Shown here: positions 27,129 to 52,022 of the stretch, piece after piece
How positions within the stretch are numbered: the stretch's first letter is position 1
Layout of the letters: each line of letters starts with the position of its first letter
NCBI GenBank assembly: GCA_964427615.1
Contig: CAYRUR010000003.1
Location: 44,062 to 108,061, forward strand
DNA length: 64,000 nt
Direction: 5' to 3'
DNA from: an uncultured Gammaproteobacteria bacterium
Lineage (GTDB): Bacteria > Patescibacteriota > Microgenomatia > Levybacterales > GWA1-39-11
Notes under the pieces: generated by a model
Seen by the model: the letters and a program-made list of their open reading frames with translations, nothing else
Databases searched by the model: none
Told to the model about the DNA's origin: nothing
Translations under genes and position numbers: made by a program

Positions 27129-28370
27129 TTACAAATGAGAGTATTCTTTTCGTATTTCCTCACGTTGATACTTGTCTGCTAGAAACCCATTTGGTTTTGT
27201 GGGTAATTTAGGTGCGTATGCCAAATATCCATTGCGCACTATATGTCCCCCATACTTTTTATTGAGACTATCTACCGCTTTTAAGAGTTTGTCTTGACGG
27301 GGATCTTCAAAAAGAGAGTAAGTAGTAACTTTTTTGTCTTCAATACTGCTCACCCAAATACTTATTTGCCGTACCATCCATTGCCAATTCCATTTTTGAT
27401 ATAAAAAGTAACATACTTCAAAAATATCTTGTCCTTTATCCATATACCTATCAGTCGTTTTTCTGCCTTGCATACTTTTTTCTCCCGCCAGAGAAAGTCC
27501 TACTGTTTTGGCTTTTTTATCTAGTTTGCGCAACTTTAATGCTACTTCTTCGCATAATTCATACATGATTTGTAAAATTCTTTCCTGGCTATATTCATTT
27601 TGAGGAAGACAATAGTTCCTGCCCACAGACTTAACTGTTTCCTGATGAGTGAAATGACGTACTAGACTCACATCTTTTCCATACGCAATATCTTTGAGAT
27701 GTAAAGCGCATACATTGCCAAATTCTTTTTTTAAATGAAAAAGAGGGTAGTCTCGTAAAGTAAGTAAATTTGTGATTCCCAGACAATACAGTCTCTTTTT
27801 CAATCGTTCTCCAATACCACACACTGTAGTCAGTTTGATTTGTGCATAAATAGTATCTAAATTTTTCTCATTAATTTCAGCAAAGCCATCTGGTTTATCA
27901 AGACCTGAGGCTAATTTTGCCAATAGTTTGTTGTGAGAAAGACCCACAGATACCGTAACCACAGGTCCAATTTCATTTCTAATGTCTGCTTTAATGCGTT
28001 CTACTACGCTAAAAATAGAAGGGTATAGATGCATGACAGGAGTCAAATCCATAAAAAGCTCATCCAAAGAAAAGAGTTCTACTATAGGACTATAACGACT
28101 GCAAATATCCAAAAACTTTTTGGTGATATCAAGATACCGGTCAAAATCAGCGGGGATAAAGATGATTTCAGGACAGATATTAACCGCTTCCCACGTACGC
28201 ATGCCTGTTTTTATGCCTTTTTTCTTTGCTTCGCGAGAAGCAGCAATAATACAAGTTCTGCCATTTGTTGCCGTAACACCAATAGGGTGATTACGTAAAT
28301 TAGGATTAAAATGTTGTTCACAGCTAGCAAAATAAGAATCAAAATCAATACAAAGAATAGTGCGTTTCAT
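27129..28370 (-). CDS. dinB: DNA polymerase IV (Y-family translesion polymerase)
   Basis: ILCIDFDSYFASCE... and SLDE motifs, little-finger domain; 413 aa. Confidence 0.85.
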   Translation of the reverse strand: MKRTILCIDFDSYFASCEQHFNPNLRNHPIGVTATNGRTCIIAASREAKKKGIKTGMRTWEAVNICPEIIFIPADFDRYLDITKKFLDICSRYSPIVELFSLDELFMDLTPVMHLYPSIFSVVERIKADIRNEIGPVVTVSVGLSHNKLLAKLASGLDKPDGFAEINEKNLDTIYAQIKLTTVCGIGERLKKRLYCLGITNLLTLRDYPLFHLKKEFGNVCALHLKDIAYGKDVSLVRHFTHQETVKSVGRNYCLPQNEYSQERILQIMYELCEEVALKLRKLDKKAKTVGLSLAGEKSMQGRKTTDRYMDKGQDIFEVCYFLYQKWNWQWMVRQISIWVSSIEDKKVTTYSLFEDPRQDKLLKAVDSLNKKYGGHIVRNGYLAYAPKLPTKPNGFLADKYQREEIRKEYSHL

Positions 28371-29964: not shown

Positions 29965-30034
29965 AAGAAAAGTACCACCATACTAGCAAAAGAGGCATCT
30001 CATTAGCAAGCAATTAAATCTAAAACTAGTATAA

Positions 30035-30125
30035 AGTATGAAGAAGTAAGTAGTAAGTATAGAAAGAAATTAAAAAATAAAAAGTCAAAAAGCAAAAGTA
30101 GATGGCAAAAGTAAAAAGTTTTAAG
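30035..30125. repeat. 7-bp-period decayed tandem array, 13 units (agtatga/agaagta/agtagta/agtatag/aaagaaa/ttaaaaa/.../gcaaaag/taaaaag)
   Basis: Same unit vocabulary as 5710-5765 array. Confidence 0.5.
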
Positions 30126-30318
30126 ATTCTGTATATACTACATACTATATACTAAATACCCACTTTTAACTCTTTAACGCGCAATCCATTAACTTACTTG
30201 TACTTAAGCCCTAACCACTCAACGATACCGGCCCTGTACCAGACGGTACGGGACGGGCTTCGTAACCGTTTACCAAAAATCAATCCTCCTCATGGATCCT
30301 GAATTAAATTCAGGATGA

Positions 30319-30560
30319 CAAGCTTTGGTAGTTTTATATTTTTTCTAAACGCTAAACGCTTCTCTTTCTGGATCCTAAATCCCTCCTTTGTCAAGGCTTC
30401 GGAAGGGCACAGCAAGTTCCTCCGATTTGATTGCAGTTCAGGCCTAGGCTCTGAAGAGCCTTCAAGTAAAAGATACTGTAAGTGCTCGTAGAGATGACAC
30501 ATTTGTGGTGGTTTTAGTAATTTTTTCTAAACGCTAAACCCTATACGCTAAACGCTTGCT
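30319..30560. repeat. pair of ~45-bp direct repeats (GGT..TTTT..ATTTTTTCTAAACGCTAAAC(G/C)CT...) ~190 bp apart, each containing (CTAAACG)x2; between them hairpins ATCCTGAATT/AATTCAGGAT and AGGCTCT-ga-AGAGCCT
   Basis: Read directly; the annotated minus-strand 70-aa ORF 30290-30502 lies wholly in this repeat region and is probably spurious. Confidence 0.4.
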
Positions 30561-30595
30561 CTCTGTTTACTGTTTTCTGTTCTCTGCCTTCTTCT

Positions 30596-30623
30596 TAATT
30601 CCTAATTCATAATTCTTAATTCG
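30596..30623. repeat. tandem heptamer array (TAATTCN)x4: ttaattcc taattca taattct taattcg
   Basis: Read directly. Confidence 0.55.
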
Positions 30624-30669
30624 TACCTTCCAACTCGTTAACCCGTTAATAACCAATAAAGAATAATTT

Positions 30670-30706
30670 CTAAACCCTAAACCCTAAGCCCTAAACGCTA
30701 AACGCT
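30670..30706. repeat. tandem heptamer array (CTAAACS)x5: ctaaacc ctaaacc ctaagcc ctaaacg ctaaacg (telomere-like CCCTAAA-type motif)
   Basis: Read directly; same heptamer also at 30345-30360, 30527-30556 and reverse-complemented at 5823-5850 and 24493-24520. Confidence 0.6.
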
Positions 30707-30793
30707 CCATACTCACACACCTCCCTCCTTTTTCTCACCTTATCCTTACATTTTGTACCTACAATAGAGTTTCATTATTCTTATTGCATTATT

Positions 30794-32896: not shown

Positions 32897-33550
32897 TTAT
32901 TCTTCAGCTAATGATTGAGTGTAACCTAATTTAACAAGTTCTTCATACGCAGACCACACATCTTCTGGTATATCCTGAGGAATTTGATATCCCTTTTCTG
33001 CATATAATTTGATGCGTTGCAAATCACCTACCATAGATTGTATCGAAGCATCTTTACCTCTAGGAGAGGTATTCATATATTCATCATAGGAAACTTGGGG
33101 AGAGCTCATGATTACTTCTACTTCTGGCCATTGTTTTTTTATAGTCGCATATGTTCTTCTTTCTATATATGGCTTTTGAACAACAATAATGCGTTTTGCA
33201 TGAATTCCATGCTTTTCTAGTAAAGCTTTTGTAAAAAGCGTATTTTCACCTGAATTTTTTGTTTGAGTCTCTAATAGTACATTTTCTTTTGGTAACCCAA
33301 ATTCCTGAGCTGCTTCAGATAATGTCTCTGCTTCTGTCTTATCCCAAGAAGCAGTGGAATCACTTTTATGACCTGAAAAAACAACAATCGGAGCATAGCC
33401 TTGTAAAAAAAGTTCTGCTGCTCGTTTGCCAATGGTGGGATTATAGCTGCCAAATACCACAATCGCATCTGCCTTTTTTAAAGTATGATGCATGAGGCTA
33501 TAATTCCAGATCCTCTTTGCAAGATTATCTATATATTCTCTTGAGGGCAT
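32897..33550 (-). CDS. DUF218 (YdcF/SanA/ElyC-like) domain protein, copy 1
   Basis: AIVVFGS...VVFSG...ENTLFTKALL pattern; 217 aa; ~92% aa identity to paralogue at 38840-39493. Confidence 0.5.
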   Translation of the reverse strand: MPSREYIDNLAKRIWNYSLMHHTLKKADAIVVFGSYNPTIGKRAAELFLQGYAPIVVFSGHKSDSTASWDKTEAETLSEAAQEFGLPKENVLLETQTKNSGENTLFTKALLEKHGIHAKRIIVVQKPYIERRTYATIKKQWPEVEVIMSSPQVSYDEYMNTSPRGKDASIQSMVGDLQRIKLYAEKGYQIPQDIPEDVWSAYEELVKLGYTQSLAEE

Positions 33551-33568
33551 GAGTAGATTATAGTATAA
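32897..33568. repeat. direct repeat A (~670 bp, ~90% nt identity to 38840-39547) bounding the copper cassette
   Basis: Nucleotide alignment by eye from stop codon through ~18 bp beyond start (CATGAGTAGATTATAGTA shared). Confidence 0.6.
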
Positions 33569-33762
33569 AAGTTGAATATGATGAAAATCATCGAGAGTAT
33601 ACGTTAAAAATCAAATACCTATCTCAGTATGGGAGAGTATTTATTGTCCTCTCCTTTCCTCAAGCTAAAAAATAATGTAAATCGTACATTACATTGATTT
33701 TAGCAGTAATACAAGAAAGCAGCACATCACCTAAATGCAGATATTTTTCAATTCTATAACTG

Positions 33763-34086
33763 TTGCTTGACATGAAGATTGATCTAGTGGTAATATCCCT
33801 CATAGGGGGATATATGGCATACAGACCAAAAGACACTCACGAAAGAATTACTCACCGCCTCAAAATTGCAAGAGGACACCTTGATAAAGTAATCAAAATG
33901 ATGGAAGAAGATGCTTATTGTATTGATGTAATGCATCAAATACAGGCAGTTGAGTCTGGATTAAAAGAAACTGGCAATCTACTTCTAGAAAATCATCTTA
34001 AATCCTGTGTAGCTGATGCAATTAGTAAGGGTAAGACAGATGAGTCTATTGCTGAAATAATGCAGGTATTTAAGAAAAAAACTTAA
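33763..34086 (+). CDS. csoR: CsoR/RcnR-family metal-sensing transcriptional repressor (likely true start at Met ~33814)
   Basis: RLKIARGHLDKVIKMMEEDAYCIDVMHQIQAVESGL...HLKSCV: conserved Cys/His/Cys of the CsoR family (DUF156). Confidence 0.7.
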   Translation: MLDMKIDLVVISLIGGYMAYRPKDTHERITHRLKIARGHLDKVIKMMEEDAYCIDVMHQIQAVESGLKETGNLLLENHLKSCVADAISKGKTDESIAEIMQVFKKKT

Positions 34087-34103
34087 TATGAGGAGGTGAT
34101 CAT

Positions 34104-34748
34104 ATGAAGAATGAAACTTTGAAATATCTATTAGGTGGAGTACTAGTTGGTGGTATTGCTGTATGGGTTATTACAATCTCAGCTATTAATTCTAATAATA
34201 CGAAAATGATGCAAATGATGGGAATAAGAGCAACAAACGGACAAAACACTCCTCAAAACCCAGATAATATAGACGCACATTTCATTGAGCAAATGATTCC
34301 TCATCATGAAGATGCAATCACCATGGCGAAACTTGCACAAACAAAAGCACAACATCCAGAGGTGAAGCAACTAGCAGATAACATCATTGAATCTCAAGGG
34401 AAAGAAATAAATCAAATGAAAGAGTGGTATAAGAATTGGTTTGGAAAAGAGGTTCCCACAGGAGACCAAATCATGAACCAACATGGAATGATGAGAGGAA
34501 ATGGTATGCATATGGGGATGGGTGATGAGACTGATATGGCACGACTTGAGCAGGCGGAAGAATTCGATAAAGCATTTATTGAAGAAATGATACCTCATCA
34601 CCAAATGGCAGTTATGATGGCAAGTATGCTTAAAAGTGGAACACAAAGACCAGAAATGAAAAAACTTGCTGACGATATAATAACTGCTCAAACTAATGAG
34701 ATAAACCAAATGAGACAATGGTATTCTGCTTGGGGATACAACCAGTAG
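34104..34748 (+). CDS. DUF305 family protein (copper-resistance associated, two His-rich MIPHH-type repeats), N-terminal TM anchor
   Basis: Two copies of FIEQMIPHH/FIEEMIPHHQ motif and Met/His-rich linker. Confidence 0.65.
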   Translation: MKNETLKYLLGGVLVGGIAVWVITISAINSNNTKMMQMMGIRATNGQNTPQNPDNIDAHFIEQMIPHHEDAITMAKLAQTKAQHPEVKQLADNIIESQGKEINQMKEWYKNWFGKEVPTGDQIMNQHGMMRGNGMHMGMGDETDMARLEQAEEFDKAFIEEMIPHHQMAVMMASMLKSGTQRPEMKKLADDIITAQTNEINQMRQWYSAWGYNQ

Positions 34749-34795
34749 TCTTTTTAAGAGGTGCAATACATGTGCTTCTTCTGAGAACATAACGT

Positions 34796-35153
34796 ATGGA
34801 AATTGATAAATTACTTGTCGCCTTATTCAGTGTTGGTGGAGTGGCTTTAACCTATTGGTTTTTTCTCACGAAAAAAGATGAAGAAGTTGTGGTGGTAAAG
34901 ACTAACACCGTAGATGTTACTGTAGAGGGCGGATATTCTCCTCATGTTATTTCTATCCCAAAAGGTAAAACAACAACAATAAATTTTTTTCGTAAAGACC
35001 CAAGCTCATGCCTTGAAGAGGTTGTTCTTCCAGATTTTAAAGTACGAAAGTATCTGCCTCTCAATAAAATGACATCTATTTCAATTACTCCTAAAAAAGA
35101 AGGTACGTATGAATTCTCGTGTGGTATGAATATGTTTCATGGAAAAATAAAAG

Positions 35154-35161
<8 letters not shown>
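34796..35161 (+). CDS. small membrane-anchored cupredoxin-like copper-binding protein
   Basis: C-terminal [14 protein letters not shown] resembles cupredoxin Cys/Met/His copper site; paralogous to C-terminus of the 37389-38525 product. Confidence 0.45.
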
Positions 35162-37385
<2,224 letters not shown>

Positions 37386-37388
37386 AGT

Positions 37389-38525
37389 ATGAATATTAAG
37401 GTTAAAAAACAAACATTATTGATTTCTGCAGTACTTACATCACTTTTTCTCATTGGTTTTCTTTTCTTAAAAATTAATGCTCTGGAAAATGCATCTCCTT
37501 CAGCACCAACACCTCAGGATATCAATCTTTGGGCGATATTTCTTACTGGACTACTTACAGGTGGATTAACGTGCCTCGCTGTGCAGGGAGGATTATTAGC
37601 AGCAACTATTGCCCAAAGAGAAGAGGAAAAACTAAAAGAAAAAACGAAACAGTCAGGCAATGCGCTTCCTATTTTAGCTTTTCTTGTAGCAAAACTTATC
37701 GCCTATACTGCTCTTGGATTTCTTCTTGGATGGTTTGGCTCACTATTTCAGTTATCCCTTATGGCTCAAATTATTATGCAAGTAGCAGTTGCGGTGTTCA
37801 TGATCACAACAGCACTAAATATTCTGAATGTGCATCCAATTTTTAGATATGTGGTAATTCAACCTCCTAAGTTTTTAACTCGACTTGTCCGTAATCAATC
37901 TAAAAGTAAAAGTTTATTTGCACCTGCATTACTCGGAGCTTTTACCGTATTTATCCCTTGTGGTACTACTCAGGCAATGATGGCATTAGCAATTGCTTCA
38001 ACAAGCCCATTTTTGGGAGCAGCAGTACTATTTGCCTTTGTATTAGGCACATCTCCTTTATTTTTTACACTCGGCTATTTTGCTACTAGGCTAGGAGAAT
38101 CTTTGCAACAAAAATTTATGAAAGTAGCTGCTTTTGCACTCATACTATTAGCTTTTTTTAATCTGAATAATGTTCTTGCTTTGTCAGGAAGTTCATGGAC
38201 ACTGGATAGTATATTTAAACAATTTGAAGTAAAAAACACCCTATCCCACACTGCTCCTAAACAACACGTTGTTATCTCAGTACAAAATAGTGGTTACAAT
38301 CCTAATGTCATCACAGTTAAAGCTGGAACAAATGTTTCATTCACAATAGAAAACAGAGGGGTTTATACTTGTGCTTCAGCTTTTACTATTCCTTACTTTA
38401 ATTTTCAAAAGGTTATCCAAGCAGGAAAATCTGAAACTATCGCTTTAAAAATGCCTGACAAACCAACACAAATTCCATTCATGTGTAGCATGGGAATGTA
38501 TAGGGGGGTGATTAACGTAATATGA
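37389..38525 (+). CDS. polytopic membrane protein with conserved TM cysteines and C-terminal cupredoxin-like domain (copper handling; exact family uncertain)
   Basis: TM Cys in GGLTCLAVQGG and FIPCGTTQAM; C-terminal ...FMCSMGMYRGVINV like cupredoxin site. Confidence 0.45.
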   Translation: MNIKVKKQTLLISAVLTSLFLIGFLFLKINALENASPSAPTPQDINLWAIFLTGLLTGGLTCLAVQGGLLAATIAQREEEKLKEKTKQSGNALPILAFLVAKLIAYTALGFLLGWFGSLFQLSLMAQIIMQVAVAVFMITTALNILNVHPIFRYVVIQPPKFLTRLVRNQSKSKSLFAPALLGAFTVFIPCGTTQAMMALAIASTSPFLGAAVLFAFVLGTSPLFFTLGYFATRLGESLQQKFMKVAAFALILLAFFNLNNVLALSGSSWTLDSIFKQFEVKNTLSHTAPKQHVVISVQNSGYNPNVITVKAGTNVSFTIENRGVYTCASAFTIPYFNFQKVIQAGKSETIALKMPDKPTQIPFMCSMGMYRGVINVI

Positions 38526-38734
38526 AAAAAATAAAACTAATAATTGAAGGCATGCACTGTACCACTTGTGCTATGAATATTGATGGTGAGTTAGAGGATA
38601 CAGAAGGAATTAAAAGTGCCAGTACTAATTATGCGAAACAAGAGACTGAAGTTGAATTTGATGAAAATAAAGTTGATGATAAGAAAATAGTTGAAATAAT
38701 TAAAGAAGTTGGATATTCAGCAACCATCAAATAA
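38522..38734 (+). CDS. copZ: copper chaperone, heavy-metal-associated domain protein (CopZ-like)
   Basis: GMHCTTCAMNI metal-binding motif, 70 aa ferredoxin-like fold. Confidence 0.75.
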   Translation: MKKIKLIIEGMHCTTCAMNIDGELEDTEGIKSASTNYAKQETEVEFDENKVDDKKIVEIIKEVGYSATIK

Positions 38735-38839
38735 ATTTTTTTGTGGAGTAGTACTTTCCAAGTATTCTTCTAACTAAAACCCATCTTTATTTCTTAAACT
38801 ATCAAGTTGTTTAATGTTTTAGTTAACATTTAAGATGTC

Positions 38840-39493
38840 TCATTCTTCAGCTAATGATTGATCATAACCCAGTTTAACCAACTCTTCATATGCTTCCCAA
38901 ACATCTTGTGGTATTTCCTGAGGAATTTGGTATCCTTTTTCTGCATATAATTTGATCCGTTGCAAATCACCTACCATAGATTGTATTGATGCATCTTTTC
39001 CTCTGGGAGAAGTATTCATGTATTCATCATAGGAAACTTGGGGAGAGCTCATGATTACTTCTACTTCTGGCCATTGTTTTTTGATAGTAGCATATGTTCT
39101 TCTTTCTATGTATGGCTTTTGAACAACAATAATACGTTTTGCATAAATTCCATGCTTTTCCAGTAAAGCTTTTGAAAAGAGCGTATTTTCACCTGAATTT
39201 TTTGCTTGAGTCTCTAACAATATATTTTCTTTTGGCAACCCAAACTCCTGGGCTGCTTCAGATAATACTTCTGCCTCTGTTTTATCCCAAGAAGCTGTAG
39301 AATCACTTCTATTACCTGAGAAAACAACAACCGGAGCATATTCTCGTAGAAAAAGTTCTGCTACTCGCTTAGCAACAATAGGATTATAACTACCAAATAC
39401 CACAATAGCATCTGCCTTTTTTAGCTCATGATGCATGAGACTATAATCCCAAATCTTTTTAGCAAGATTGTCTATGTATTCTTCTGAGGACAT
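38840..39493 (-). CDS. DUF218 (YdcF/SanA/ElyC-like) domain protein, copy 2 (ORF extends to 39529 but start at Met 39493 aligns with copy 1)
   Basis: Near-identical to 32897-33550 product. Confidence 0.5.
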   Translation of the reverse strand: MSSEEYIDNLAKKIWDYSLMHHELKKADAIVVFGSYNPIVAKRVAELFLREYAPVVVFSGNRSDSTASWDKTEAEVLSEAAQEFGLPKENILLETQAKNSGENTLFSKALLEKHGIYAKRIIVVQKPYIERRTYATIKKQWPEVEVIMSSPQVSYDEYMNTSPRGKDASIQSMVGDLQRIKLYAEKGYQIPQEIPQDVWEAYEELVKLGYDQSLAEE

Positions 39494-39547
39494 GAGTAGA
39501 TTATAGTAGAAAACCCACACAAGGAGCAATTTACTAGGCGATACTAG
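38840..39547. repeat. direct repeat B (partner of 32897-33568)
   Basis: See repeat A. Confidence 0.6.
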
Positions 39548-39610
39548 AATTTACTTTTCAACGATTGCATAGCATCTCTATGAAACTTTATAACTCTACA
39601 TAAAATTAAA

Positions 39611-40761: not shown

Positions 40762-41322
40762 TTATACCGTCGTTTGTGTCGGGTCGAGGAGTACCCAATT
40801 ATTCGATACAGAAGGTTCGCTACAGAGATTGCGATTAAAACAACATGGCCTTCTCATTCCTTTGTTGAGTTTGGATAGTGCAACTTCAATATGCTTTTGG
40901 CGTGTTTCCGGAGTTTTGACAGCTCGTATCCAGCGAATCCAATCCCAACGTGCCATAGGAGTTATATCCAACCAAAGCGCTTGTGCCTTTGGGTGAGCAG
41001 CCAAGGCTTTTTGTAAATCATCAGGCACCTCAGGTTCTATCCATTCTTTCGTCGGTTCTAGCTCTACAGTAATCGTGTCGCCCACATCAGCATGAGCGTT
41101 ATCAAGCAACTTTTCATCAGGTCTGAACCAGTGACTCGATTTTTTCCCTGGTGCATACCTCCCATCCGGCTCAAGCAAGGCTTTAAAAGAAGCGCCATTG
41201 ATAGTTCCCTTAACCATTGTCATTCCTCGTGAGGGGAGTTTTGCACTCACTTCTGGAGGAAGCCTAAGAATGGTCCAAGAGCCGATTTTAAAAAGTTTTG
41301 TTTTAAAATGGATTTTTGACAT
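40762..41322 (-). CDS. DUF1905 + YdeI/OmpD-associated family protein; noticeably GC-richer than surroundings
   Basis: KLFKIGSW..LRLP...GDTITVEL (DUF1905) and AHPKAQALWLDITPMARWDWIRWI...PETRQKHIE (YdeI-like). Confidence 0.5.
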   Translation of the reverse strand: MSKIHFKTKLFKIGSWTILRLPPEVSAKLPSRGMTMVKGTINGASFKALLEPDGRYAPGKKSSHWFRPDEKLLDNAHADVGDTITVELEPTKEWIEPEVPDDLQKALAAHPKAQALWLDITPMARWDWIRWIRAVKTPETRQKHIEVALSKLNKGMRRPCCFNRNLCSEPSVSNNWVLLDPTQTTV

Positions 41323-41450: not shown

Positions 41451-42083
41451 TTACAACGAAGAACGAAATCCAATTAACACAAGAAAAATCACTGCTATTG
41501 CTGGAGTTAGCAACATTAGCAGAATATTAATTCCTAAGTTAGAAATAAGACTCCATGCAATGTCATCTCTCTTAAGCTTAAATAAAGATAATACAATTAT
41601 TAGGAAGACATTCCCCACTATCCAGATTAAATAACCGTACTTTAAAGATGTTAGATTTAAAAAGTGGGCTGCAATAATCTCAAGTGGGTTGTAGAAAATT
41701 GTACTCAGCTCACCTGAAAAAAGGATCCAAACAAGAAATAGTGTGCTGGTAACTAAGTAAGCTAGCAATAAGTTAGGAACAATACTCAATGCACTGTTCT
41801 CTCTCTTAAGTTTAAATAAAGATAATACAATTGTTAGAAAAATATTTCCCACCATCCAGCTTAGATAACCGTACTTAAAGGTCATTAGAATGAAAAAGTA
41901 GGCTACAATAATCATAAGTGGATCGTAGTTACCCAGATTACTCAGTTTATCCCGATCACCTGAAGAAAGCGTCCAGACAAAAGACATCCAGACAAGAGGT
42001 AGCGTGTTGGTAACTAAGTAAGCTAGCACCCCAAATTTAATATGTTTTAATATTCTTCTCACAGAATGTACATTATTATACAC
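41451..42083 (-). CDS. hypothetical membrane protein built from an internal tandem duplication (~80-aa 2-TM unit x2)
   Basis: Repeat units AYLVTNTLPLVW...KYGYLSWMVGNIFLTIVLSLFKLKRE and AYLVTSTLFLVW...KYGYLIWIVGNVFLIIVLSLFKLKRD; nucleotide-level duplication visible (~41556-42020). Confidence 0.4.
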   Translation of the reverse strand: MYNNVHSVRRILKHIKFGVLAYLVTNTLPLVWMSFVWTLSSGDRDKLSNLGNYDPLMIIVAYFFILMTFKYGYLSWMVGNIFLTIVLSLFKLKRENSALSIVPNLLLAYLVTSTLFLVWILFSGELSTIFYNPLEIIAAHFLNLTSLKYGYLIWIVGNVFLIIVLSLFKLKRDDIAWSLISNLGINILLMLLTPAIAVIFLVLIGFRSSL

Positions 42084-42138
42084 AAAATAGGGTAGATCAA
42101 GCTAAACTGGATTTTTACGGACTCAAAATGTAATTGTG

Positions 42139-42211
42139 GGTGGCTGACGGGATTCGAACCCGCGGCCGCCGGTACCACAAACCGGTGCTCTACCGCTGAG
42201 CTACAGCCACC
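42139..42211 (-). tRNA. tRNA-His (anticodon GTG) with encoded G-1
   Basis: Reverse complement folds as cloverleaf: G-1, acceptor GTGGCTG/CAGCCAC, anticodon loop uuGUGgu, T-arm GCGGG-ttcgaat-CCCGT. Confidence 0.7.
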
Positions 42212-43101: not shown

Positions 43102-43177
43102 TGGCGCCCCTGGAGGGAATCGAACCCCCAACCTTTTCCTTAGAAGGGAACTGCTCTGTCCGTTGAGCTACAGAGGC
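43102..43177 (-). tRNA. tRNA-Arg (anticodon TCT), CCA encoded
   Basis: Reverse complement: acceptor GCCTCTG/CAGGGGC (one U-G), D GCTC-aacggaca-GAGC, anticodon stem TTCC/GGAA loop cTTCTaa, T-arm GGGGG-ttcgatt-CCCTC, then GCCA. Confidence 0.65.
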
Positions 43178-44465: not shown

Positions 44466-44670
44466 AAAACTTATAACAATCAAACTGATGGACCGTATTA
44501 GTGAGATTTATGACGACCAAAGAATTACTGCTGAGGAGGCACTAGACCTGATGCACATGGTATCGGAGTTATCCCGACTGGCACAGCACAAAGGCATAGA
44601 CGGACTGAACGGCGAGGAAGAAGCCAAACCACTGGCCTCAATTAGTCAGGAAGGGGGAAGGGTTTTATGA
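44428..44670 (+). CDS. hypothetical phage protein
   Basis: 80-aa ORF overlapping neighbours by a few codons. Confidence 0.3.
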   Translation: MIVILKWKEKMNKKLITIKLMDRISEIYDDQRITAEEALDLMHMVSELSRLAQHKGIDGLNGEEEAKPLASISQEGGRVL

Positions 44671-45227
44671 GAGAAATCAAGTTTAGAGCGTGGGATAAAA
44701 AAACAAAACAGATTATTAAATATGTTACTCCGATAAATAATGAGTGGTGTATCACCTTTGTTAATAGATTTGGGATGACCGATACTTTTGACGGGGACTT
44801 GGAGTATATGCAATACACCGGCCTCAAGGACAAGAATGGGAAAGAGATATATGAAGGGGATATTGTGCGAGTCAAGCACGGTATCGGAGACGATGGAGAG
44901 GACTACTACTCAGAGGGATACTATCAGGTTTTTATAAGTAGCCTTTACGGGATCGAGTTGCGTTTTAAGCGGTTGATCAATAAGGATAAGCGAAATCAGT
45001 ACCCTATCTACACCACTCTCAGCTCTTATTACAACTCATTGGGTATTGATTATATGAGTCAATCCTTTGATCAGTTGGCAGTTTTGGGTACGTGGGGGGA
45101 GAACCATATTTCAGGCAATAGATGGAAGGAGAATCACTATTCAAACGACATTAAGGTCATTGGCAACATCTACGAGAACCCAGAGTTATCTAATAGCACA
45201 GAAGCATACGTAAGAGAAGAAAAATAG
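44667..45227 (+). CDS. YopX family phage protein
   Basis: N-terminus MREIKFRAWDKKTKQ is the YopX hallmark. Confidence 0.6.
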   Translation: MREIKFRAWDKKTKQIIKYVTPINNEWCITFVNRFGMTDTFDGDLEYMQYTGLKDKNGKEIYEGDIVRVKHGIGDDGEDYYSEGYYQVFISSLYGIELRFKRLINKDKRNQYPIYTTLSSYYNSLGIDYMSQSFDQLAVLGTWGENHISGNRWKENHYSNDIKVIGNIYENPELSNSTEAYVREEK

Positions 45228-45283
45228 TATGGACAATTATCAGAATTATCGCAATTTAGGAGAATACGACAACATCGACACTG

Positions 45284-46195
45284 ATGAGTGTGAAGATGAA
45301 GGAGAAGATCATGAGTAACTTATCAATTACACAATACGTAAACAACGACATTATCTTGAAAAACATTCAAGATGTTTTAAAAGACAGAACACCACAGTTT
45401 ATAACCTCTGTTGTGTCTTTAGTAAACAGCAGTGATGCATTAAAAGAGGCTGATAAAAAATCAGTACTAGGTGCATGTTTAACTGCAGCATCTTTGAATT
45501 TGCCAATTAACCAAAATCTGGGCTATGCCTATATCATTCCTTACAAAGATAACAAAAAAGGCGTAACAGTAGCTCAATTCCAGATGGGCTACAAAGGGTA
45601 TATCCAGCTCGCTATGAGAAGCGGACAATTTCAAACACTGAATGTTACAGACGTAAGAGAAGGAGAACTTAAAGAAGTAGATAGATTATCAGGGGAAATG
45701 AAATTTGAATGGGCTACTGAGAAAAGAGATTCACTTCCTGTTGTTGGGTATGTTGGCTACTTCAGACTTATAAACGGATTTGAGAAAAAGCTATATATGA
45801 CATCTGAGGAATTAAAAAAGCATGGTGTTAGATTCTCAAGCTCATATAAGAGGGGTTACGGACTCTGGAAAGATGACTTTGATGCAATGGCTAAAAAGAC
45901 GGTTATCAAGCTTCTGTTATCGAAATACGCTCCCATGAATACAGAGATGACTCAAGCTCAGGAAGCAGATCAAGCTTTAGTAACTGATAACGGATATGAG
46001 TATATCGATAACCAGAAACTTACTCCTGAAGAAGAAGCAGATATCAAAGAAAAGGAAAGAATAAAGAAGTTTATAACAGAAGCAAAAACACTTAAAAATC
46101 TAGAAGCTTGCAACACTGCTGTATATGACTCAACAGACCAAGAATTAATTGACATGTATGAAGCAAGAGTGAAGGAATTGGAGGGTAAAAAATAA
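45284..46195 (+). CDS. recT: RecT-family single-strand annealing protein (phage recombinase)
   Basis: ...SVLGACLTAASLNLPIN...GYAYIIPYKD...AQFQMGYKGYIQLAMRSGQF matches RecT family core. Confidence 0.7.
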   Translation: MSVKMKEKIMSNLSITQYVNNDIILKNIQDVLKDRTPQFITSVVSLVNSSDALKEADKKSVLGACLTAASLNLPINQNLGYAYIIPYKDNKKGVTVAQFQMGYKGYIQLAMRSGQFQTLNVTDVREGELKEVDRLSGEMKFEWATEKRDSLPVVGYVGYFRLINGFEKKLYMTSEELKKHGVRFSSSYKRGYGLWKDDFDAMAKKTVIKLLLSKYAPMNTEMTQAQEADQALVTDNGYEYIDNQKLTPEEEADIKEKERIKKFITEAKTLKNLEACNTAVYDSTDQELIDMYEARVKELEGKK

Positions 46196-46258
46196 TGGAC
46201 CACGATAGGTACTTAGAAATTGAGGCAGAAAGATTTACAGGAGAATATTACGACTTAG

Positions 46259-46489
46259 GTGATGAGGAGGAAGAAAATAATGAATAACTACTATTTTACA
46301 TTTGGACAAGTACATACACATTCTGTAAACGGAAAAACATTTGATAAGGACTGCGTGGTTTCAATAAAAGCTGGTTCTAGTGACTCAGCTCGTAGAAAAA
46401 TGTTTGATACGTTTGGACAGAAATGGGCTTCTCAATATGAAACTCAACCAGATATGAGATTTTACCCAGGAGGAATAATAACACTATGA
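46259..46489 (+). CDS. hypothetical phage protein
   Basis: 76-aa ORF between recT and exonuclease genes. Confidence 0.3.
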   Translation: MMRRKKIMNNYYFTFGQVHTHSVNGKTFDKDCVVSIKAGSSDSARRKMFDTFGQKWASQYETQPDMRFYPGGIITL

Positions 46490-47175
46490 ACACAATAGAC
46501 TTTACAAATTACAAATTCAGATCAAGCTCTTTACCTAACTTAATGGTTAAATCTCGCAGTAAATCAGATCCTTTATCTGAGACTACTAAAGCATATCTTA
46601 GAGAACTATGGATTAAAGAAATGTTTAAGCGTGAGAAGTACGACACAAAAAACAAGTTTACCGATAAAGGCATTGCTTGTGAGTCAGATAGTCTTGATTT
46701 AGTACAAATCGTTACTAAACAGACTTACTTTAAAAACAGAAAGGAACTATCAAATGATTTCATTACTGGCACACCTGATGTTATTTTAGAAGACTCAATT
46801 ATCGATATTAAAACTTCTTGGGATATCTGGACATATGGTAGCACCACAGAGGACAGCGCTAGAAAGACATACTACTATCAACTCTTAGGGTACATGTGGC
46901 TTACCAATACTAAAAAAGCAAGCCTTATGTACTGCCTAGTAAACACGCCAGAGGATATCATGAATGATGAGTTATATCGCTTGAGTTTTAGATATCCAGA
47001 AATTAATGAAAGTGATGAAAAGGCCAATAAGTACAAAAGAAACTATATCTTTGATGATATAGATCACACTCTGAGACTTAAAAAATATGACTTTGAATTT
47101 GTAGAAGAAGATATCAACGAATTGCAAAACAAAATTGTACTTGCCCGTGAGTACATGAATGGTTTGAGTTTGTAG
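46486..47175 (+). CDS. YqaJ-like PD-(D/E)XK recombination exonuclease (partner of RecT)
   Basis: FITGTPDVILEDSIIDIKTS = D...E.K nuclease motif; position immediately after recT. Confidence 0.55.
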   Translation: MNTIDFTNYKFRSSSLPNLMVKSRSKSDPLSETTKAYLRELWIKEMFKREKYDTKNKFTDKGIACESDSLDLVQIVTKQTYFKNRKELSNDFITGTPDVILEDSIIDIKTSWDIWTYGSTTEDSARKTYYYQLLGYMWLTNTKKASLMYCLVNTPEDIMNDELYRLSFRYPEINESDEKANKYKRNYIFDDIDHTLRLKKYDFEFVEEDINELQNKIVLAREYMNGLSL

Positions 47176-47214
47176 ATTTATAAAAACTGTCCTAGCTTTT
47201 TTGGGAAGCTAAAT

Positions 47215-47484
47215 ATGAATAACTTGCCGCCACTCAGAGGTAAACAAAAAGTAATTTACCGTCTCATTCAAGAGGCGGGAGAAAAGGGAATTAACGCTAA
47301 TGACCTTAGACGTACTACCTATACTGTAGACGTGCCTAAAGTTGTATCAGAGTTAAACAAGAAAGGGTACAGCATTTTCTCTAAAAGAGAGAAAGACGGC
47401 ACAGCAACTTATTCACTTACCACACTTCCACAGAAGCCTAGAACGTATATTTTTGAAGGTAATAGGGCTATACCTATTTATTAA
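47215..47484 (+). CDS. hypothetical small phage protein (possible DNA-binding)
   Basis: 89-aa basic ORF. Confidence 0.3.
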   Translation: MNNLPPLRGKQKVIYRLIQEAGEKGINANDLRRTTYTVDVPKVVSELNKKGYSIFSKREKDGTATYSLTTLPQKPRTYIFEGNRAIPIY

Positions 47485-47486
47485 AT

Positions 47487-48356
47487 ATGAAATGGTTTAA
47501 ACACGAAGCAGACGCTTCACAAAATAAAAAGGTCAGAAAGTTGAAGAGAATGTACGGGGCTGAAGGCTATGCAGTATATTTTCAAATCGCTGAGTTTATA
47601 GCAGAAGACATTGAAAAAGACAATGTTAATGATTGGGGATTCTTACCTCATGAGTATGACGATATGGAATTCTTAGCAGATGAAGTAGGTATAGAAGATG
47701 TGGAGAAATTAAAAGAAATTATAGAGTTCTGCTGCAGCAATCCAGTGAATTTATTTGAGAAAAGAGAGGGAAGAATTTATTGTGAAAGAGTATTAGAACA
47801 GGCAGATGAATATACTCAGAAATTAATTAAACAAGCGAAAGGTAATTTAGGTGAAAAATCGGGAGAAAGTGAGGCTAAAGAAGAGACTGAATCAGAAGTG
47901 AATCGGGATAGTATCGGGAGTAAATCGGGAGACAATCAAGAGTCAGTCGGGCATAAGAAGAAGAAAGAGAAAGAGAATCAGAATGAGAAAAAGAAAGAGA
48001 ATGAAAAAGAAGAAAAGGATTTAAAAAAATCCATTGCTTATTTGTCTAGTTTTCCTTTAGAAGATTTTGCAGAGATTGATATTACGGAAAAACAACTGAG
48101 ATTAGAGGCTCAAAAAGCGCTCAACTGGCTCAAGTCAGAAGGCAAAAGAAAGAAAGATTATCAAGCATTTTTTGTTAATTGGATTCTAAGAAACTACAAA
48201 ATGAAGTCAGAGGTAGTACTTTTCCCTGAGCATAAAAAAGTTCCACCAGAACAGCGAGTCTCAAACGAAAAAATGCAACAGCTCAGGCAACAGTTAACAG
48301 GAATCGCAAAATCTAAGTCAGTCAATGGAGAGGAGGTGAAAAACAATGGAGGATAA
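47487..48356 (+). CDS. Lin1244/Lin1753-like (DUF4373) N-terminal domain protein, phage replication initiation/organiser-type; K/E-rich low-complexity middle
   Basis: N-terminus MKWFKHEADASQNKKVRKLKRMYGAEGYAVYFQIAEFIAE matches DUF4373. Confidence 0.55.
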   Translation: MKWFKHEADASQNKKVRKLKRMYGAEGYAVYFQIAEFIAEDIEKDNVNDWGFLPHEYDDMEFLADEVGIEDVEKLKEIIEFCCSNPVNLFEKREGRIYCERVLEQADEYTQKLIKQAKGNLGEKSGESEAKEETESEVNRDSIGSKSGDNQESVGHKKKKEKENQNEKKKENEKEEKDLKKSIAYLSSFPLEDFAEIDITEKQLRLEAQKALNWLKSEGKRKKDYQAFFVNWILRNYKMKSEVVLFPEHKKVPPEQRVSNEKMQQLRQQLTGIAKSKSVNGEEVKNNGG

Positions 48357-48515
48357 ACAGATTATACGAGTAGTGGAAGCAGCCCCTGAGTATCAGAAAA
48401 AGATGTCTTGGGGAGGAGTAACCAAAAACGGTTATATCCACTACGAGTTATCTAACGGAGAAAAAGTAACTGCACCGTTACAAAAGAAATAAAGCAGTCT
48501 TAGGCAGACTAGTAA

Positions 48516-48821
48516 ATGAAAGGAGGTGAAAATAAAAATATGAAAAGTAAAAAAACAAGTAAAACAAAAAAAATAGAGAAAGTTGAAGAAAAAGTTCAGA
48601 AAGAAAAACCAGTGAGATTTATTGTTACTGGTGCAAAAACTAAAGACTCTTATTTTAGATACGCTTTTTTTGAACCAGTAAGCGAGACATATGGATTCTC
48701 TACCAAAGAAAAGCTTCTTAAGTGGCTTGAGAATGAATGTTCTAACCCTAGAGAAGTAGAAATCTACTCAGTAGGCGAAAGACTTAGTGTAAAAGGAAAC
48801 TTTGAGTTGGTCTTGAAGTAG
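48516..48821 (+). CDS. hypothetical phage protein
   Basis: ORF only. Confidence 0.3.
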   Translation: MKGGENKNMKSKKTSKTKKIEKVEEKVQKEKPVRFIVTGAKTKDSYFRYAFFEPVSETYGFSTKEKLLKWLENECSNPREVEIYSVGERLSVKGNFELVLK

Positions 48822-48995
48822 ATTATCTCTTGTTCGTTGGCTTGAAGGCGTAGGCAGCTTCAGGCTAACAAAGAATAGATAACAAAAACATATGAATAAA
48901 GAAGATTTAATTGTTTTATTAATTGTAACAGCAGGCTATATAGCCTCAGTGATATTGTTTGGGTACTTTGTGCTGTCGGGAGGGAAATTTTAAAG

Positions 48996-49508
48996 ATGAA
49001 AAGAAAAAATAAAAAAAGTGAATTCGGAAGAGGTTTTATATATTGCTTAACTATGTTTGCTATTCATTTTGAAAACAGTCAAGCAAAGAACATTAGGAAC
49101 AGACATTTCTTAATGACTAAAGAAAACAGGACAGAGTACTTAACTGATTCTCCACCAATTAATAAAGATTATGGATTTAACGAGGATGTTAAGTGGTGGT
49201 ATGAGAAAATCGTTCCCATTTATGGATCATGGGAAAAAGCACTGTCCTCAGATATCGAGACATGGGCAAATGGTGCATCAGACCACCTATACGAAATTGA
49301 AACTCCTAAAAAATGGAGAGGAACAGAAATAGAAAGAAAAGTGCTAGAGTTACAAGATTTTGGGCTAGAGATAGGGCATGGTTTTACTGGAAAGACATAC
49401 ACAATTGATGATTTTAATAAATTAAAGAAGTTAGTTAGTGAGATAACTAAGTTAGTAGATGAAAAATTAGGGGTTGAACAAATAGACGCAATATATGGAG
49501 AGCTTTAA
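48996..49508 (+). CDS. hypothetical phage protein
   Basis: 170-aa ORF. Confidence 0.35.
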   Translation: MKRKNKKSEFGRGFIYCLTMFAIHFENSQAKNIRNRHFLMTKENRTEYLTDSPPINKDYGFNEDVKWWYEKIVPIYGSWEKALSSDIETWANGASDHLYEIETPKKWRGTEIERKVLELQDFGLEIGHGFTGKTYTIDDFNKLKKLVSEITKLVDEKLGVEQIDAIYGEL

Positions 49509-49520
49509 GTTTTACTAGAT

Positions 49521-51947: not shown

Positions 51948-52022
51948 TTATGGAAATTATAAGTTATATATTATTTTTAACTCTATGTGCAATCATAGGT
52001 TGGGAGTTAGGAAGAAGATGAT

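What the first reader, a model, noticed from the sequence alone, without database searches (positions are those of the whole stretch)
32897..39547. Copper-homeostasis cassette bracketed by ~670-bp direct repeats (duplicated DUF218 gene, ~90% nt identity)
The cassette is csoR, DUF305, small cupredoxin, copA, a membrane-cupredoxin protein and copZ. It is flanked on both sides by same-orientation paralogues of a DUF218 gene. The repeats are near-identical from the stop codon to ~18 bp past the start. Direct repeats of this size allow RecA-mediated excision, amplification or loss of the cassette. The arrangement looks like a recombination-mobilisable resistance module rather than core chromosome.
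Basis: seen in the sequence. Interest (0 to 1): 0.6.

Follow-up and report, generated by a model that had tools for sequence, protein, structure and literature searches.

The report
Copper operon between old duplicated ydcF genes
A six-gene copper-export operon in an uncultured Levybacteria-like bacterium sits between two copies of a small housekeeping-type gene, but the copies are 12% diverged and both conserved, so this looks like an old, stable arrangement and not an actively jumping resistance module.

Summary
Two same-orientation YdcF/DUF218 genes (32897-33570 and 38840-39513, minus strand) form a 674-bp ungapped direct repeat 5,943 bp apart. Between them lies csoR, copM (DUF305), a cupA-like cupredoxin, copA, a DsbD_2-cupredoxin fusion and copZ.

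The copies are not near-identical. They share 87.8% nucleotide and 89.4% amino-acid identity, with dS about 0.49 and dN/dS about 0.13. Both accumulate changes at equal rates, so this is an old duplication with both copies kept by selection. Homology stops at the stop codon and about 5 nt upstream of the -10 box, and the flanks share nothing.

The cassette type does behave as shared accessory DNA. It recurs from the csoR promoter to copZ in five unrelated contexts in other Microgenomates, twice next to large serine recombinases. Its CopA is more widely conserved than the core protein UvrB.

None of those cassettes is flanked by this ydcF gene, and none of 27 ydcF loci carries copper genes. I found no deleted or amplified hybrid form, and composition is native.

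Recombination between the repeats is mechanically possible, because there is one 62-bp perfect run, but nothing shows it happening. Verdict: an ordinary CsoR-controlled copper-efflux operon in an unusual but old bracket. Interest is low to moderate.

The parts
32897..33570 (-). Repeat copy a: ydcF_a (DUF218) CDS 32897-33550 plus 20 bp upstream containing TATAAT-CTACTC-ATG, a likely leaderless promoter
   Evidence: Pfam DUF218 E=1e-15. PDB 3CA8 E. coli YdcF E=3e-7. Equals P0001 at 100%. Boundaries.
33078..33139 (.). Longest perfect identity run (62 bp) shared with 39021-39082. It is the only run well above MEPS and the most likely crossover site. It also causes the k=31 assembly break.
   Evidence: run lengths 62, 29, 25, 23; the Logan contig ends 30 nt inside this run on each side. 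Codon-shuffle P=0.023.
33571..33766 (.). Unique spacer between ydcF_a and the cassette. It is not shared with the other repeat flank or with foreign cassettes.
   Evidence: cassette homology begins at 33767-33793. (no homology to 39514-39610).
33767..33796 (+). csoR operon promoter: TTGACA, 18-nt spacer, TG-extended TAATAT
   Evidence: Best intergenic sigma-70-like site, 10 of 12 matches. Sequence.
33793..33813 (+). CsoR operator, the pseudo-palindrome ATATCCCTCATAGGGGGATAT, overlapping the -10 box and abutting the csoR ATG
   Evidence: Invariant in 4 aligned cassettes. Exactly one per cassette in 6 cassette loci and none in 35 other loci.
33814..34086 (+). csoR, Cu(I)-sensing repressor (90 aa) with Y35, C36, H61, C65 and E81
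   Evidence: Pfam Trns_repr_metal E=4e-25. Residues. 88-95% identical in foreign cassettes.
34104..34748 (+). copM (DUF305), a secreted or anchored Met/His-rich copper-binding protein with two HH motifs and an N-terminal hydrophobic segment
   Evidence: Pfam DUF305 E=4e-46. NCBIfam CopM 115 bits against a cut-off of 90. Motifs. CopM function from PMC4335983.
34796..35161 (+). cupA-like membrane-anchored cupredoxin Cu(I) chaperone (C72, C109-x-M111-x-M113)
   Evidence: PDB 2MRY/4F2E CupA E=3.3e-21. Motifs and N-terminal TM segment.
35163..37385 (+). copA, P1B-1 Cu(I)-exporting ATPase (N-terminal CxxC HMA domain, CPC, DKTGT, YNx4P, MxxSS)
   Evidence: TIGR01511 650 bits against a cut-off of 397. 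Pfam. Motifs. Equals P0121.
37389..38525 (+). Six-TM DsbD_2 membrane domain fused to a C-terminal CupA-like cupredoxin (C328, C366-x-M-x-M)
   Evidence: Pfam DsbD_2 E=3e-32 and Cupredoxin_1 E=1e-14. TM segments and motifs. Its homologue is paired with an HMA gene on Deinococcus and Chlorohelix megaplasmids.
38522..38734 (+). copZ, HMA-domain Cu(I) chaperone (MHCTTC)
   Evidence: Pfam HMA E=3e-14. Motif.
38735..38839 (.). Unique spacer between copZ and ydcF_b
38840..39513 (-). Repeat copy b: ydcF_b CDS 38840-39493 plus 20 bp upstream with the same TATAAT-CTACTC-ATG
   Evidence: Pfam DUF218 E=1e-16. Equals P0002. Sequence. Sister to copy a in the tree.

Best explanation
What it is. The region holds a complete, single-promoter copper-detoxification operon. 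Its genes are csoR, copM, cupA-like, copA, a DsbD_2-cupredoxin fusion and copZ. It lies in an accessory stretch of a Levybacteria-like (Microgenomates/CPR) chromosome, between two old paralogues of a ydcF (DUF218) gene.

How it works (inferred from family knowledge). Without copper, CsoR binds the ATATCCC-N5-GGGGGATAT operator, which overlaps the -10 box, and represses the operon. Cu(I) binding at C36/H61/C65 releases it. CopZ and the membrane-anchored CupA-like protein then hand Cu(I) to the P1B-1 ATPase CopA for export. CopM and the fusion protein's external cupredoxin domain bind or buffer copper outside the membrane.

The cassette type. The csoR-to-copZ module circulates among Microgenomates, and elsewhere it is sometimes carried on serine-recombinase islands.

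The bracket. The bracketing repeat is a lineage-specific duplication of the minimal ydcF gene, running from the -10 box to the stop codon. It is old (dS about 0.49), and both copies are kept functional by selection. The direct repeats could in principle support rare RecA- or prophage RecT-mediated deletion or amplification through the 62-bp identical run. The divergence shows instead that the arrangement has been stably inherited for a long time, so it is not a recently formed or actively cycling unit.

What is shown and what is inferred. Shown: the anatomy, motifs, operator conservation, divergence statistics and comparative contexts. Inferred: the regulation, the copper-handling route, and how the bracket arose. 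It could have arisen by a tandem gene duplication with later insertion, or by gene-limited concerted evolution, and the data cannot tell these apart.
For: - Repeat statistics: 674 bp, 87.8% identical, dS 0.49, dN/dS 0.13. Derived amino-acid changes are 12 versus 10.
- The two copies are sister to each other. The next relative is 76% identical among 5.8 billion proteins.
- Both copies keep an identical -10 box and ATG.
- Every diagnostic Cu(I) motif is present.
- There is one conserved operator per cassette, abutting csoR, with a promoter over it. Gene gaps are -4 to 47 nt on one strand.
- The cassette recurs with different flanks in L028, L029, L030 and L033/L034, and homology always runs from 33767/33793 to 38661/38704. 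Large serine recombinases abut csoR in L030 and L033.
- Among the top 119 hits, all CopA hits are at or above 75% and 35 are at or above 80%. For UvrB, 5 are at or above 75% and 3 at or above 80%.
- No ydcF orthologue locus (27 loci) carries cassette genes.
- No hybrid YdcF protein is on record, and the P0001 and P0002 clusters are singletons.
- Composition is native.
- Context: uvrABC core genes at 3-13 kb, then an accessory stretch bounded by tRNAs, then a prophage.
- An independent assembly matches window 33110-39050 exactly.
Against: - The homology is confined exactly to the functional gene with no residual flank similarity, even though the test had 66-90% power at K=0.49. A simple segmental duplication does not predict this. 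A Campbell-type integration predicts it better.
- No genus-level relative with this locus could be examined, so I never saw the empty-site or ancestral state.
- The evidence for horizontal transfer is indirect. The nearest sampled cassettes are saturated at synonymous sites (dS 1.1-2.2), and strong constraint on CopA could mimic part of the CopA-above-UvrB pattern.
- Population heterogeneity (rare deletions or amplifications) cannot be seen without reads. A k=31 graph is blind to it.
- Regulation and copper export are inferred from homology and were not tested.
Confidence: 0.6

Rival explanations
1. Homologous-recombination-mobilisable module. A circular molecule carrying ydcF' plus the cassette, for example a circularised fragment taken up by transformation, integrated by a single Campbell-type crossover into the resident ydcF. 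This created two hybrid ydcF copies that flank the insert. The same repeats can excise it as a 5,943-bp circle, delete it or amplify it.
For: - Direct repeats in the same orientation flank the whole insert.
- Homology is restricted exactly to the gene with unrelated flanks, as expected if only ydcF was shared between the circle and the chromosome.
- Divergence is spread fairly evenly along the gene.
- The 62-bp perfect run exceeds MEPS (PMC8918686).
- The cassette type is evidently transferable.
- The outer flanks look like a single ydcF locus split by the insert.
- A prophage RecT plus exonuclease lies 6 kb away.
Against: - The two copies are each other's closest relatives. A donor would have to be a sister lineage at dS 0.49, and none is sampled.
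- None of the five foreign cassettes has this ydcF next to it, and no ydcF locus has the cassette.
- No hybrid, deleted or amplified form is on record.
- 12% divergence strongly depresses RecA recombination. It also shows that no homogenising or excising event has happened for a long time.
- A 5.9-kb circle with no replication or recombination gene only pushes the origin problem back one step.
Confidence: 0.2
2. Functional linkage. YdcF/DUF218 proteins work with the copper cassette, for example in envelope or cofactor chemistry under copper stress. Under this reading, selection for co-location or dosage explains DUF218 genes on both sides, and recombination history does not.
For: - DUF218-family genes lie within a few genes of the cassette in 3 of 5 contexts: the window, L029 (both sides) and L030 (directly after copZ).
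- Both window copies are under purifying selection.
Against: - The DUF218 genes near the foreign cassettes are only 27-32% identical to the window's ydcF and to each other, so no subfamily is associated with the cassette.
- L028 and L033 have none.
- The 27 loci with ydcF orthologues have no copper genes and sit in dnaE/ndk/mraY-like housekeeping contexts.
- ydcF is transcribed from its own promoter on the opposite strand, and no CsoR operator lies near it.
- The sample of contexts is tiny.
Confidence: 0.07
3. Assembly ambiguity. The true state in the sample is a single hybrid ydcF in the chromosome plus a separate 5.9-kb circular or tandemly amplified unit, or a mis-join between two strains. 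The contig would then show only one of several paths through the repeat.
For: - In a k=31 graph, the integrated form and the combination of deleted chromosome plus circle are indistinguishable.
- The independent Logan contig is exactly one repeat period minus 2 bp, and it ends inside the shared 62-bp run.
Against: - The Logan contig physically links a-type sequence (33110-33570) and b-type sequence (38840-39050) to the cassette, and it is 100% identical to the window.
- The 129.7-kb NCBI contig runs through both copies with distinct variants.
- Repeats that are 12% diverged are easily resolved by reads of 100 nt or more.
- A replicon-less circle is implausible as a stable entity.
- Both copies are intact and evolve symmetrically.
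Confidence: 0.05

Closest known systems
CsoR-regulated copZA operon of Bacillus subtilis and the cso operon of Mycobacterium tuberculosis
   Same: CsoR has the C36/H61/C65 Cu(I) site plus Y35 and E81. A G/C-tract pseudo-palindromic operator overlaps the promoter. There is a P1B-1 CopA and an MxCxxC CopZ.
   Different: csoR is the first gene of the same transcription unit. Three extra extracytoplasmic or membrane partners are inserted (CopM, a CupA-like protein and a DsbD_2-cupredoxin fusion). The host is a CPR bacterium.
Streptococcus pneumoniae cop operon (copY-cupA-copA)
   Same: A membrane-anchored cupredoxin-fold Cu(I) chaperone lies immediately upstream of copA. It is homologous to CupA (PDB 2MRY/4F2E, E=3e-21) and the Cys...CxMxM ligands are conserved.
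   Different: The regulator is CsoR, not CopY. CopA carries a classical HMA N-terminal domain, not a cupredoxin one. A second CupA-like domain is fused to a DsbD_2 membrane protein.
Synechocystis CopM (DUF305) copper-resistance protein
   Same: It has the DUF305/CopM fold with two HH motifs, is Met/His-rich and has an N-terminal export signal-like segment. It passes the NCBIfam CopM cut-off (PMC4335983).
   Different: It is encoded in a CsoR/CopA operon, not in copMRS with a two-component system.
Direct-repeat-flanked amplifiable or excisable units (IS26-type translocatable units, composite transposons, RecA-driven tandem amplification between repeated genes)
   Same: A resistance cassette is bracketed by same-orientation repeats several hundred bp long, and one identical run is above MEPS.
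   Different: The repeats are a housekeeping-type gene, not an IS, and there is no transposase. The repeats are 12% diverged, not near-identical. No circular, deleted or amplified form and no second occurrence of the unit was found.
Serine-recombinase genomic islands carrying the same cassette in other Microgenomates (L030, L033)
   Same: The same csoR-to-copZ module with the same operator, 75-77% nucleotide and 81-95% amino-acid identity.
   Different: The window has no recombinase, methylase or FtsK/DUF87-type genes nearby, and no remnants of them.

Membership tests
CsoR/CopA/CopZ copper-efflux operon | CsoR-family repressor with the x-C-H-C Cu(I) ligand set | tested here: met
   PF02583 E=4e-25. 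Y35, C36, H61, C65 and E81 are present.
CsoR/CopA/CopZ copper-efflux operon | P1B-1 ATPase signature (CPC in TM6, YNx4P, MxxSS, DKTGT, N-terminal CxxC) | tested here: met
   TIGR01511 650 bits against a cut-off of 397. All motifs were located.
CsoR/CopA/CopZ copper-efflux operon | G/C-tract inverted-repeat operator overlapping the promoter | tested here: met
   ATATCCCTCATAGGGGGATAT at 33793-33813 is invariant across cassettes and occurs once per cassette. Protein binding was not tested.
CsoR/CopA/CopZ copper-efflux operon | Copper-inducible expression and a copper-tolerance phenotype | not testable with these tools
   This needs an experiment. The organism is uncultured.
S. pneumoniae-type CupA/CopA system | CupA cupredoxin chaperone with Cys...CxMxM ligands | tested here: met
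   PDB CupA E=3.3e-21. C72 and C109-G-M-N-M are present.
S. pneumoniae-type CupA/CopA system | CopY regulator and a cupredoxin-type N-terminal domain on CopA | tested here: not met
   The regulator is CsoR. The CopA N-terminus is an HMA domain, PF00403.
Active direct-repeat-flanked amplifiable or excisable unit | Same-orientation repeats bracketing the cargo | tested here: met
   674-bp repeats at an offset of 5,943 bp.
Active direct-repeat-flanked amplifiable or excisable unit | Repeats (near-)identical, as expected for a recent or recurrently recombining unit | tested here: not met
   87.8% identity and dS 0.49. Only one run is above 30 bp.
Active direct-repeat-flanked amplifiable or excisable unit | Alternative forms (deleted, circular, amplified) present in populations or relatives | tested here: inconclusive
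   Ten predicted hybrid YdcF proteins are absent and the parental clusters are singletons. However, the organism is known from one MAG and two read sets, and reads were not available. The k=31 graph is uninformative.
Active direct-repeat-flanked amplifiable or excisable unit | The same unit (repeat plus cargo) found in more than one genome or context | tested here: not met
   0 of 27 ydcF loci have the cassette, and 0 of 5 foreign cassettes have this ydcF.
Composite transposon / IS-bounded unit | Flanking repeats encode a transposase or have terminal inverted repeats | tested here: not met
   The repeats are DUF218 genes. No inverted repeats were found, and there are no recombinase hits in the window.
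Serine-recombinase integrative island | Large serine recombinase gene at the island edge | tested here: not met
   It is present in L030 and L033 but absent from the window, with tblastn at E up to 1 finding nothing.
Campbell-type (single-crossover) integration product | Duplication limited to the segment shared by the circle and the chromosome, with unrelated flanks | tested here: met
   Homology ends at the stop codon and at -20. Flank alignment gives P=0.89-0.98, with 66-90% power. Gene-limited concerted evolution also explains this.
Campbell-type (single-crossover) integration product | Donor molecule or empty target site observed | tested here: not met
   None was found in the genome, protein or Logan look-ups. 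The metagenome scan failed.

The most novel reading that the evidence does not exclude
The ydcF-cassette-ydcF structure is a recombinase-free mobile unit. It spreads among competent CPR bacteria by circularising through its own direct repeats and then re-integrating by a single homologous crossover into the conserved ydcF gene of a new host. In effect it uses a housekeeping gene as a portable attachment site.
Probability: 0.1. Interest if true: 0.6.

Novelty: new member of a known kind. Interest (0 to 1): 0.25.

Why it matters
If the ordinary reading holds, the value is descriptive in three ways.

- It documents a well-equipped, CsoR-controlled copper-export cassette (CopM, a CupA-like chaperone, CopA, a DsbD_2-cupredoxin fusion and CopZ). 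This cassette is shared at unusually high identity across Microgenomates, a group whose metal homeostasis is hardly described. My literature searches found nothing specific.
- It gives a clean operator sequence for that regulon.
- The bracket of diverged gene copies shows that direct repeats around a resistance cassette do not by themselves indicate current mobility. Synonymous divergence of the repeats is a quick way to tell old, stable brackets from active ones.

Only if junction reads or further occurrences turned up would it become an example of homology-driven cassette mobility in ultra-small bacteria.

Tried and rejected
1. Exact-protein look-ups of both window YdcF copies returned nothing, so I reached the source contig only through P0001, P0002 and P0121.
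No large survey of cassette contexts was possible.
3. A viral-contig scan found only one 44%-identical CopA, which was not informative.
4. L029 looked like a second case of a cassette bracketed by DUF218 plus abhydrolase. The pairs are only 24-32% identical, lie in mirror order and share no DNA repeat, so I rejected it.
5. I rejected the idea that one DUF218 subfamily travels with the cassette, because all pairs are 27-32% identical.
6. The closest YdcF relatives (L032 at 76%, L023 at 73%) share no flank with the window apart from a dinB-like gene about 4.5 kb away in L023. I therefore recovered no empty site.
7. The gene-conversion test gave only a weak signal. The longest run has P=0.023, and synonymous changes are few in codons 121-160. 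I did not pursue it further.
9. My first operator pattern had the wrong spacer length and missed the true site. I corrected it.
10. The source organism's name could not be retrieved. I inferred the lineage from named UvrB and CopA hits (Levybacteria).

Full report

Yes. ORF listing and Pfam give two DUF218 genes on the minus strand, at 32897-33550 and 38840-39493. Between them, on the plus strand, lie six genes:
- a CsoR-family repressor
- a DUF305 protein
- a small cupredoxin
- a P-type ATPase
- a DsbD_2-cupredoxin fusion
- an HMA chaperone

The repeat finder, a MAFFT alignment and an in-register comparison define one ungapped homologous unit of 674 bp, 32897-33570 versus 38840-39513, at an offset of 5,943 bp. 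It is 87.8% identical. A whole-window self-BLAST shows exactly two copies.

Identity collapses to background within 20 bp outside the stop codon on one side. On the other side it collapses about 20 bp beyond the ATG. The conserved 20 bp contain TATAAT-CTACTC-ATG in both copies, which looks like a leaderless promoter.

'~90%' is slightly generous, and 'near-identical' is wrong. There are 82 differences, and the longest perfect runs are 62, 29 and 25 bp.

**2. Is the assembly trustworthy?**

The window comes from a 129,677-bp NCBI contig that carries both copies as distinct proteins, P0001 and P0002.

An independent Logan assembly of run SRR7082976 contains a 5,941-bp contig that equals window 33110-39050 exactly. 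Its ends lie 30 nt inside the 62-bp run shared by the two copies, which is where a k=31 de Bruijn graph must break.

This confirms that a-type and b-type ydcF sequence are both physically joined to the cassette. It cannot distinguish the integrated form from a mixture containing deleted or circular forms.

**3. How old is the duplication?**

- Amino-acid identity is 89.4%.
- Differences by codon position are 20, 13 and 48.
- Nei-Gojobori dS is 0.49, dN is 0.062 and dN/dS is 0.13.
- With ten outgroups, derived amino-acid changes split 12 (copy a) to 10 (copy b). Both copies evolve under purifying selection and neither is decaying.
- In a neighbour-joining tree of the 35 best hits among 5.8 billion proteins, the two copies are sisters. 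The next relative is 76% identical.

So this is a lineage-specific and old duplication, or an older one partly homogenised by gene conversion. A codon-shuffle test of the 62-bp run gives only P=0.023.

The flanks outside the unit keep no detectable homology. Smith-Waterman scores fall below the shuffle means (P=0.89-0.98). Simulated neutral flanks at K=0.49 would be detected in 66-90% of trials. The homologous unit is therefore the minimal functional gene.

**4. What is the cassette?**

- **csoR (33814-34086).** It has Y35, C36, H61, C65 and E81.
- **The DUF305 protein.** It passes the NCBIfam CopM cut-off, and it has two HH motifs, 22 Met and an N-terminal hydrophobic segment. CopM is a secreted copper-binding resistance protein in Synechocystis (PMC4335983).
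- **The small cupredoxin.** It is a clear homologue of S. pneumoniae CupA (PDB 2MRY/4F2E, E=3.3e-21) and conserves Cys72 and Cys109-x-Met-x-Met.
- **CopA (35163-37385).** It passes TIGR01511 and has CxxC, CPC, DKTGT, YNx4P and MxxSS.
- **The fusion protein.** It has six predicted TM segments of DsbD_2 type and a C-terminal CupA-like domain with the same CxMxM motif. Homologues about 46% identical are paired with an HMA gene on Deinococcus and Chlorohelix megaplasmids, where they are annotated as TauE/SafE.
- **CopZ.** It has MHCTTC.
- **Operon structure.** The genes are spaced -4 to 47 nt apart on one strand.
- **Promoter and operator.** The promoter TTGACA-18-TAATAT (33767-33796) is the best intergenic site. 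A pseudo-palindrome, ATATCCCTCATAGGGGGATAT (33793-33813), overlaps the -10 box and touches the csoR ATG. It is invariant in four aligned cassettes. It occurs exactly once in each of six cassette loci and nowhere in 35 other loci.

The inferred mechanism is CsoR de-repression by Cu(I). Chaperones (CopZ in the cytoplasm, the CupA-like protein at the membrane) then deliver Cu(I) to CopA for export, and CopM and the fusion protein's cupredoxin domain bind copper outside the membrane. This rests on homology to characterised families and was not tested here.

**5. Is the cassette mobile or accessory?**

Evidence in favour:
- CopA has 119 cluster representatives at 75.5-85% identity, 35 of them at or above 80%. 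Named hits include Levybacteria, Daviesbacteria and a Limnocylindrales bin.
- The normally more conserved core protein UvrB from the same window has only 3 hits at or above 80% and 5 at or above 75%.
- YdcF has none above 76% apart from its own paralogue.
- Two CopA/UvrB hit pairs have matching contig lengths (125,626 and 44,379 bp). They give CopA 80% against UvrB 73%, apparently within the same genomes.
- In five foreign contexts the module is the same but the flanks are unrelated. DNA homology to the window always starts at 33767-33793 and ends at 38661-38704.
- In L030 and in L033, a 592-kb contig, a large serine recombinase abuts csoR. The two recombinases are only 28% identical to each other. 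Restriction-modification, methylase, DUF87, FtsK-gamma and Xre genes lie nearby.
- Several Logan contigs of the L033-type cassette stop about 30 nt after copZ, which suggests the assembly graph branches at the cassette edge.

Evidence against recent transfer into this genome:
- The nearest cassettes are saturated at synonymous sites (dS 1.1-2.2).
- GC, GC3, codon usage (rank 23 of 39 equal-sized blocks) and tetranucleotide profile are typical of the window.
- The window holds no recombinase or remnant of one.

The locus does lie in an accessory stretch. The genes uvrB, uvrA and uvrC at 3-13 kb are core. From the tRNAs at 19 kb to those at 42-43 kb the genes are miscellaneous: MFS, SNase, dinB, an exonuclease with a GIY-YIG domain, a kinase-like gene, Schlafen/AlbA_2 and YdeI. 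A prophage-like block starts at 44.6 kb.

**6. Do the repeats mobilise it?**

Structurally they could. One perfect run of 62 bp exceeds the bacterial MEPS of at most 30 bp (PMC8918686), and a RecT plus exonuclease pair sits 6 kb away.

Every test for activity or portability was negative or blind:
- None of the 27 loci holding ydcF orthologues (40-76% identical) has any cassette gene. The closest ones are single-copy, some beside dnaE, ndk and mraY-like genes.
- None of the five foreign cassettes is next to this ydcF. The DUF218 genes near L029 and L030 are 27-32% identical paralogues, unrelated to each other and not repeats.
- Ten hybrid YdcF proteins expected from crossovers in the five longest difference-free intervals, in both polarities, are absent from 15 billion proteins.
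- The 90% clusters of P0001 and P0002 each contain one sequence, so no recombinant of any breakpoint has been assembled.
- 12% divergence that has persisted long enough to reach dS 0.49 means the two copies have not recombined or been homogenised across most of their length for a long time.

**7. How did the bracket arise?**

This is unresolved. I considered three routes:
- (a) A Campbell-type single crossover of a circular ydcF'-cassette molecule. This neatly explains the gene-limited homology, but it needs an unsampled sister-lineage donor.
- (b) A short tandem duplication of ydcF, followed by insertion of the cassette at the junction.
- (c) Older paralogues whose coding regions alone were kept similar by selection and occasional conversion.

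I rank the 'old, stable bracket around an ordinary operon' reading at about 0.6. I put the recombination-mobilisable reading at about 0.2, a functional ydcF-copper link at about 0.07 and assembly ambiguity at about 0.05.

**8. Comparison with known systems, and verdict**

Functionally this is a CsoR/CopA/CopZ operon (B. subtilis and M. tuberculosis type) enriched with a pneumococcal-type CupA chaperone, a cyanobacterial-type CopM and a DsbD_2-cupredoxin fusion. It meets the sequence-level membership criteria of the CsoR/CopA/CopZ family.

It fails the CopY and cupredoxin-MBD criteria of the pneumococcal system.

As a mobile element it meets only the 'flanking direct repeats' criterion. It fails on repeat identity, on transposase or recombinase content, and on recurrence of the unit.

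It is a new member of a known kind. Interest is about 0.25.

The most novel reading I cannot exclude is a recombinase-free cassette that uses ydcF as a portable homologous attachment site. I give it about 0.1.

Noticed in passing
window 29965-30793: An intergenic stretch of about 800 bp made of a chain of different 7-nt tandem arrays: AAGTAGT, AAAGTAA, ATACTAA, CTAAACG (at two or more places), TCTCTGT, TTCTTAA and CTAAACC. The last unit resembles a plant telomere repeat. I have no explanation for it.
   Followed up: partly
window ~44600-64000: A prophage-like block, all on the plus strand, with strong positive GC skew. It holds YopX (44667), RecT (45284), Lin1244_N (47487), an RNase_T-type exonuclease (50036) and an SU10 head-tail adaptor (55445). 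It lies next to tRNA-Arg(tct) at 43102-43177 and tRNA-His at 42138-42210. A prophage with a RecT recombinase in a CPR genome may be worth its own look.
   Followed up: partly
window 41451-42083 (-): A 210-aa membrane protein with no Pfam match that contains an internal tandem duplication. DNA repeats 41535-41767 and 41769-42028 are about 73-84% identical.
   Followed up: no
window 40762-41322 (-): A YdeI/OmdA plus DUF1905 gene with GC 0.446 and GC3 0.38. This is well above the window background of 0.363 and 0.29, so it is a better compositional candidate for recent acquisition than the copper cassette.
   Followed up: no
L033 6978-20646; L030 1-7571: In other Microgenomates the same copper cassette abuts large serine recombinases that are only 28% identical to each other. 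It sits among type I R-M, N6/N4 methylase, DUF87 ATPase, FtsK-gamma and Xre genes, which look like integrative islands carrying the cassette as cargo.
   Followed up: partly
L034, L036, L037, L038 (3' ends): Logan contigs from several samples that carry the L033-type cassette all terminate about 30 nt after copZ. This suggests the assembly graph branches at the cassette boundary, meaning the cassette sits in more than one context in those communities.
   Followed up: no
L029 6430-7032 and 16162-16989; L030 13839-14450: Distant DUF218 paralogues (27-32% identical) lie near the cassette in 2 of 4 foreign genomes, and L029 also has an abhydrolase on each side. This is probably chance given how common DUF218 is, but the sample is too small to tell.
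   Followed up: partly
L040 6016-7263; L041 5758-7279: The DsbD_2-cupredoxin fusion, annotated 'sulfite exporter TauE/SafE family protein', is followed by an HMA-domain gene on Deinococcus and Chlorohelix megaplasmids, next to two-component and mer genes. The pair looks like a conserved metal-handling submodule that is mis-annotated.
   Followed up: partly
window 27129-28370 (-) and L023 5222-6433: A dinB-like (IMS) gene lies about 4.5 kb from ydcF, in the same relative orientation, both in the window (next to copy a) and in L023, the closest long-contig relative. This is a weak hint that copy a occupies the ancestral position.
   Followed up: partly
tool behaviour: The metagenome-contig scan failed with 'unexpected contig name' when the query was given as protein id P0121. 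It was still counted against the cap, which blocked the planned survey of cassette contexts.
   Followed up: no
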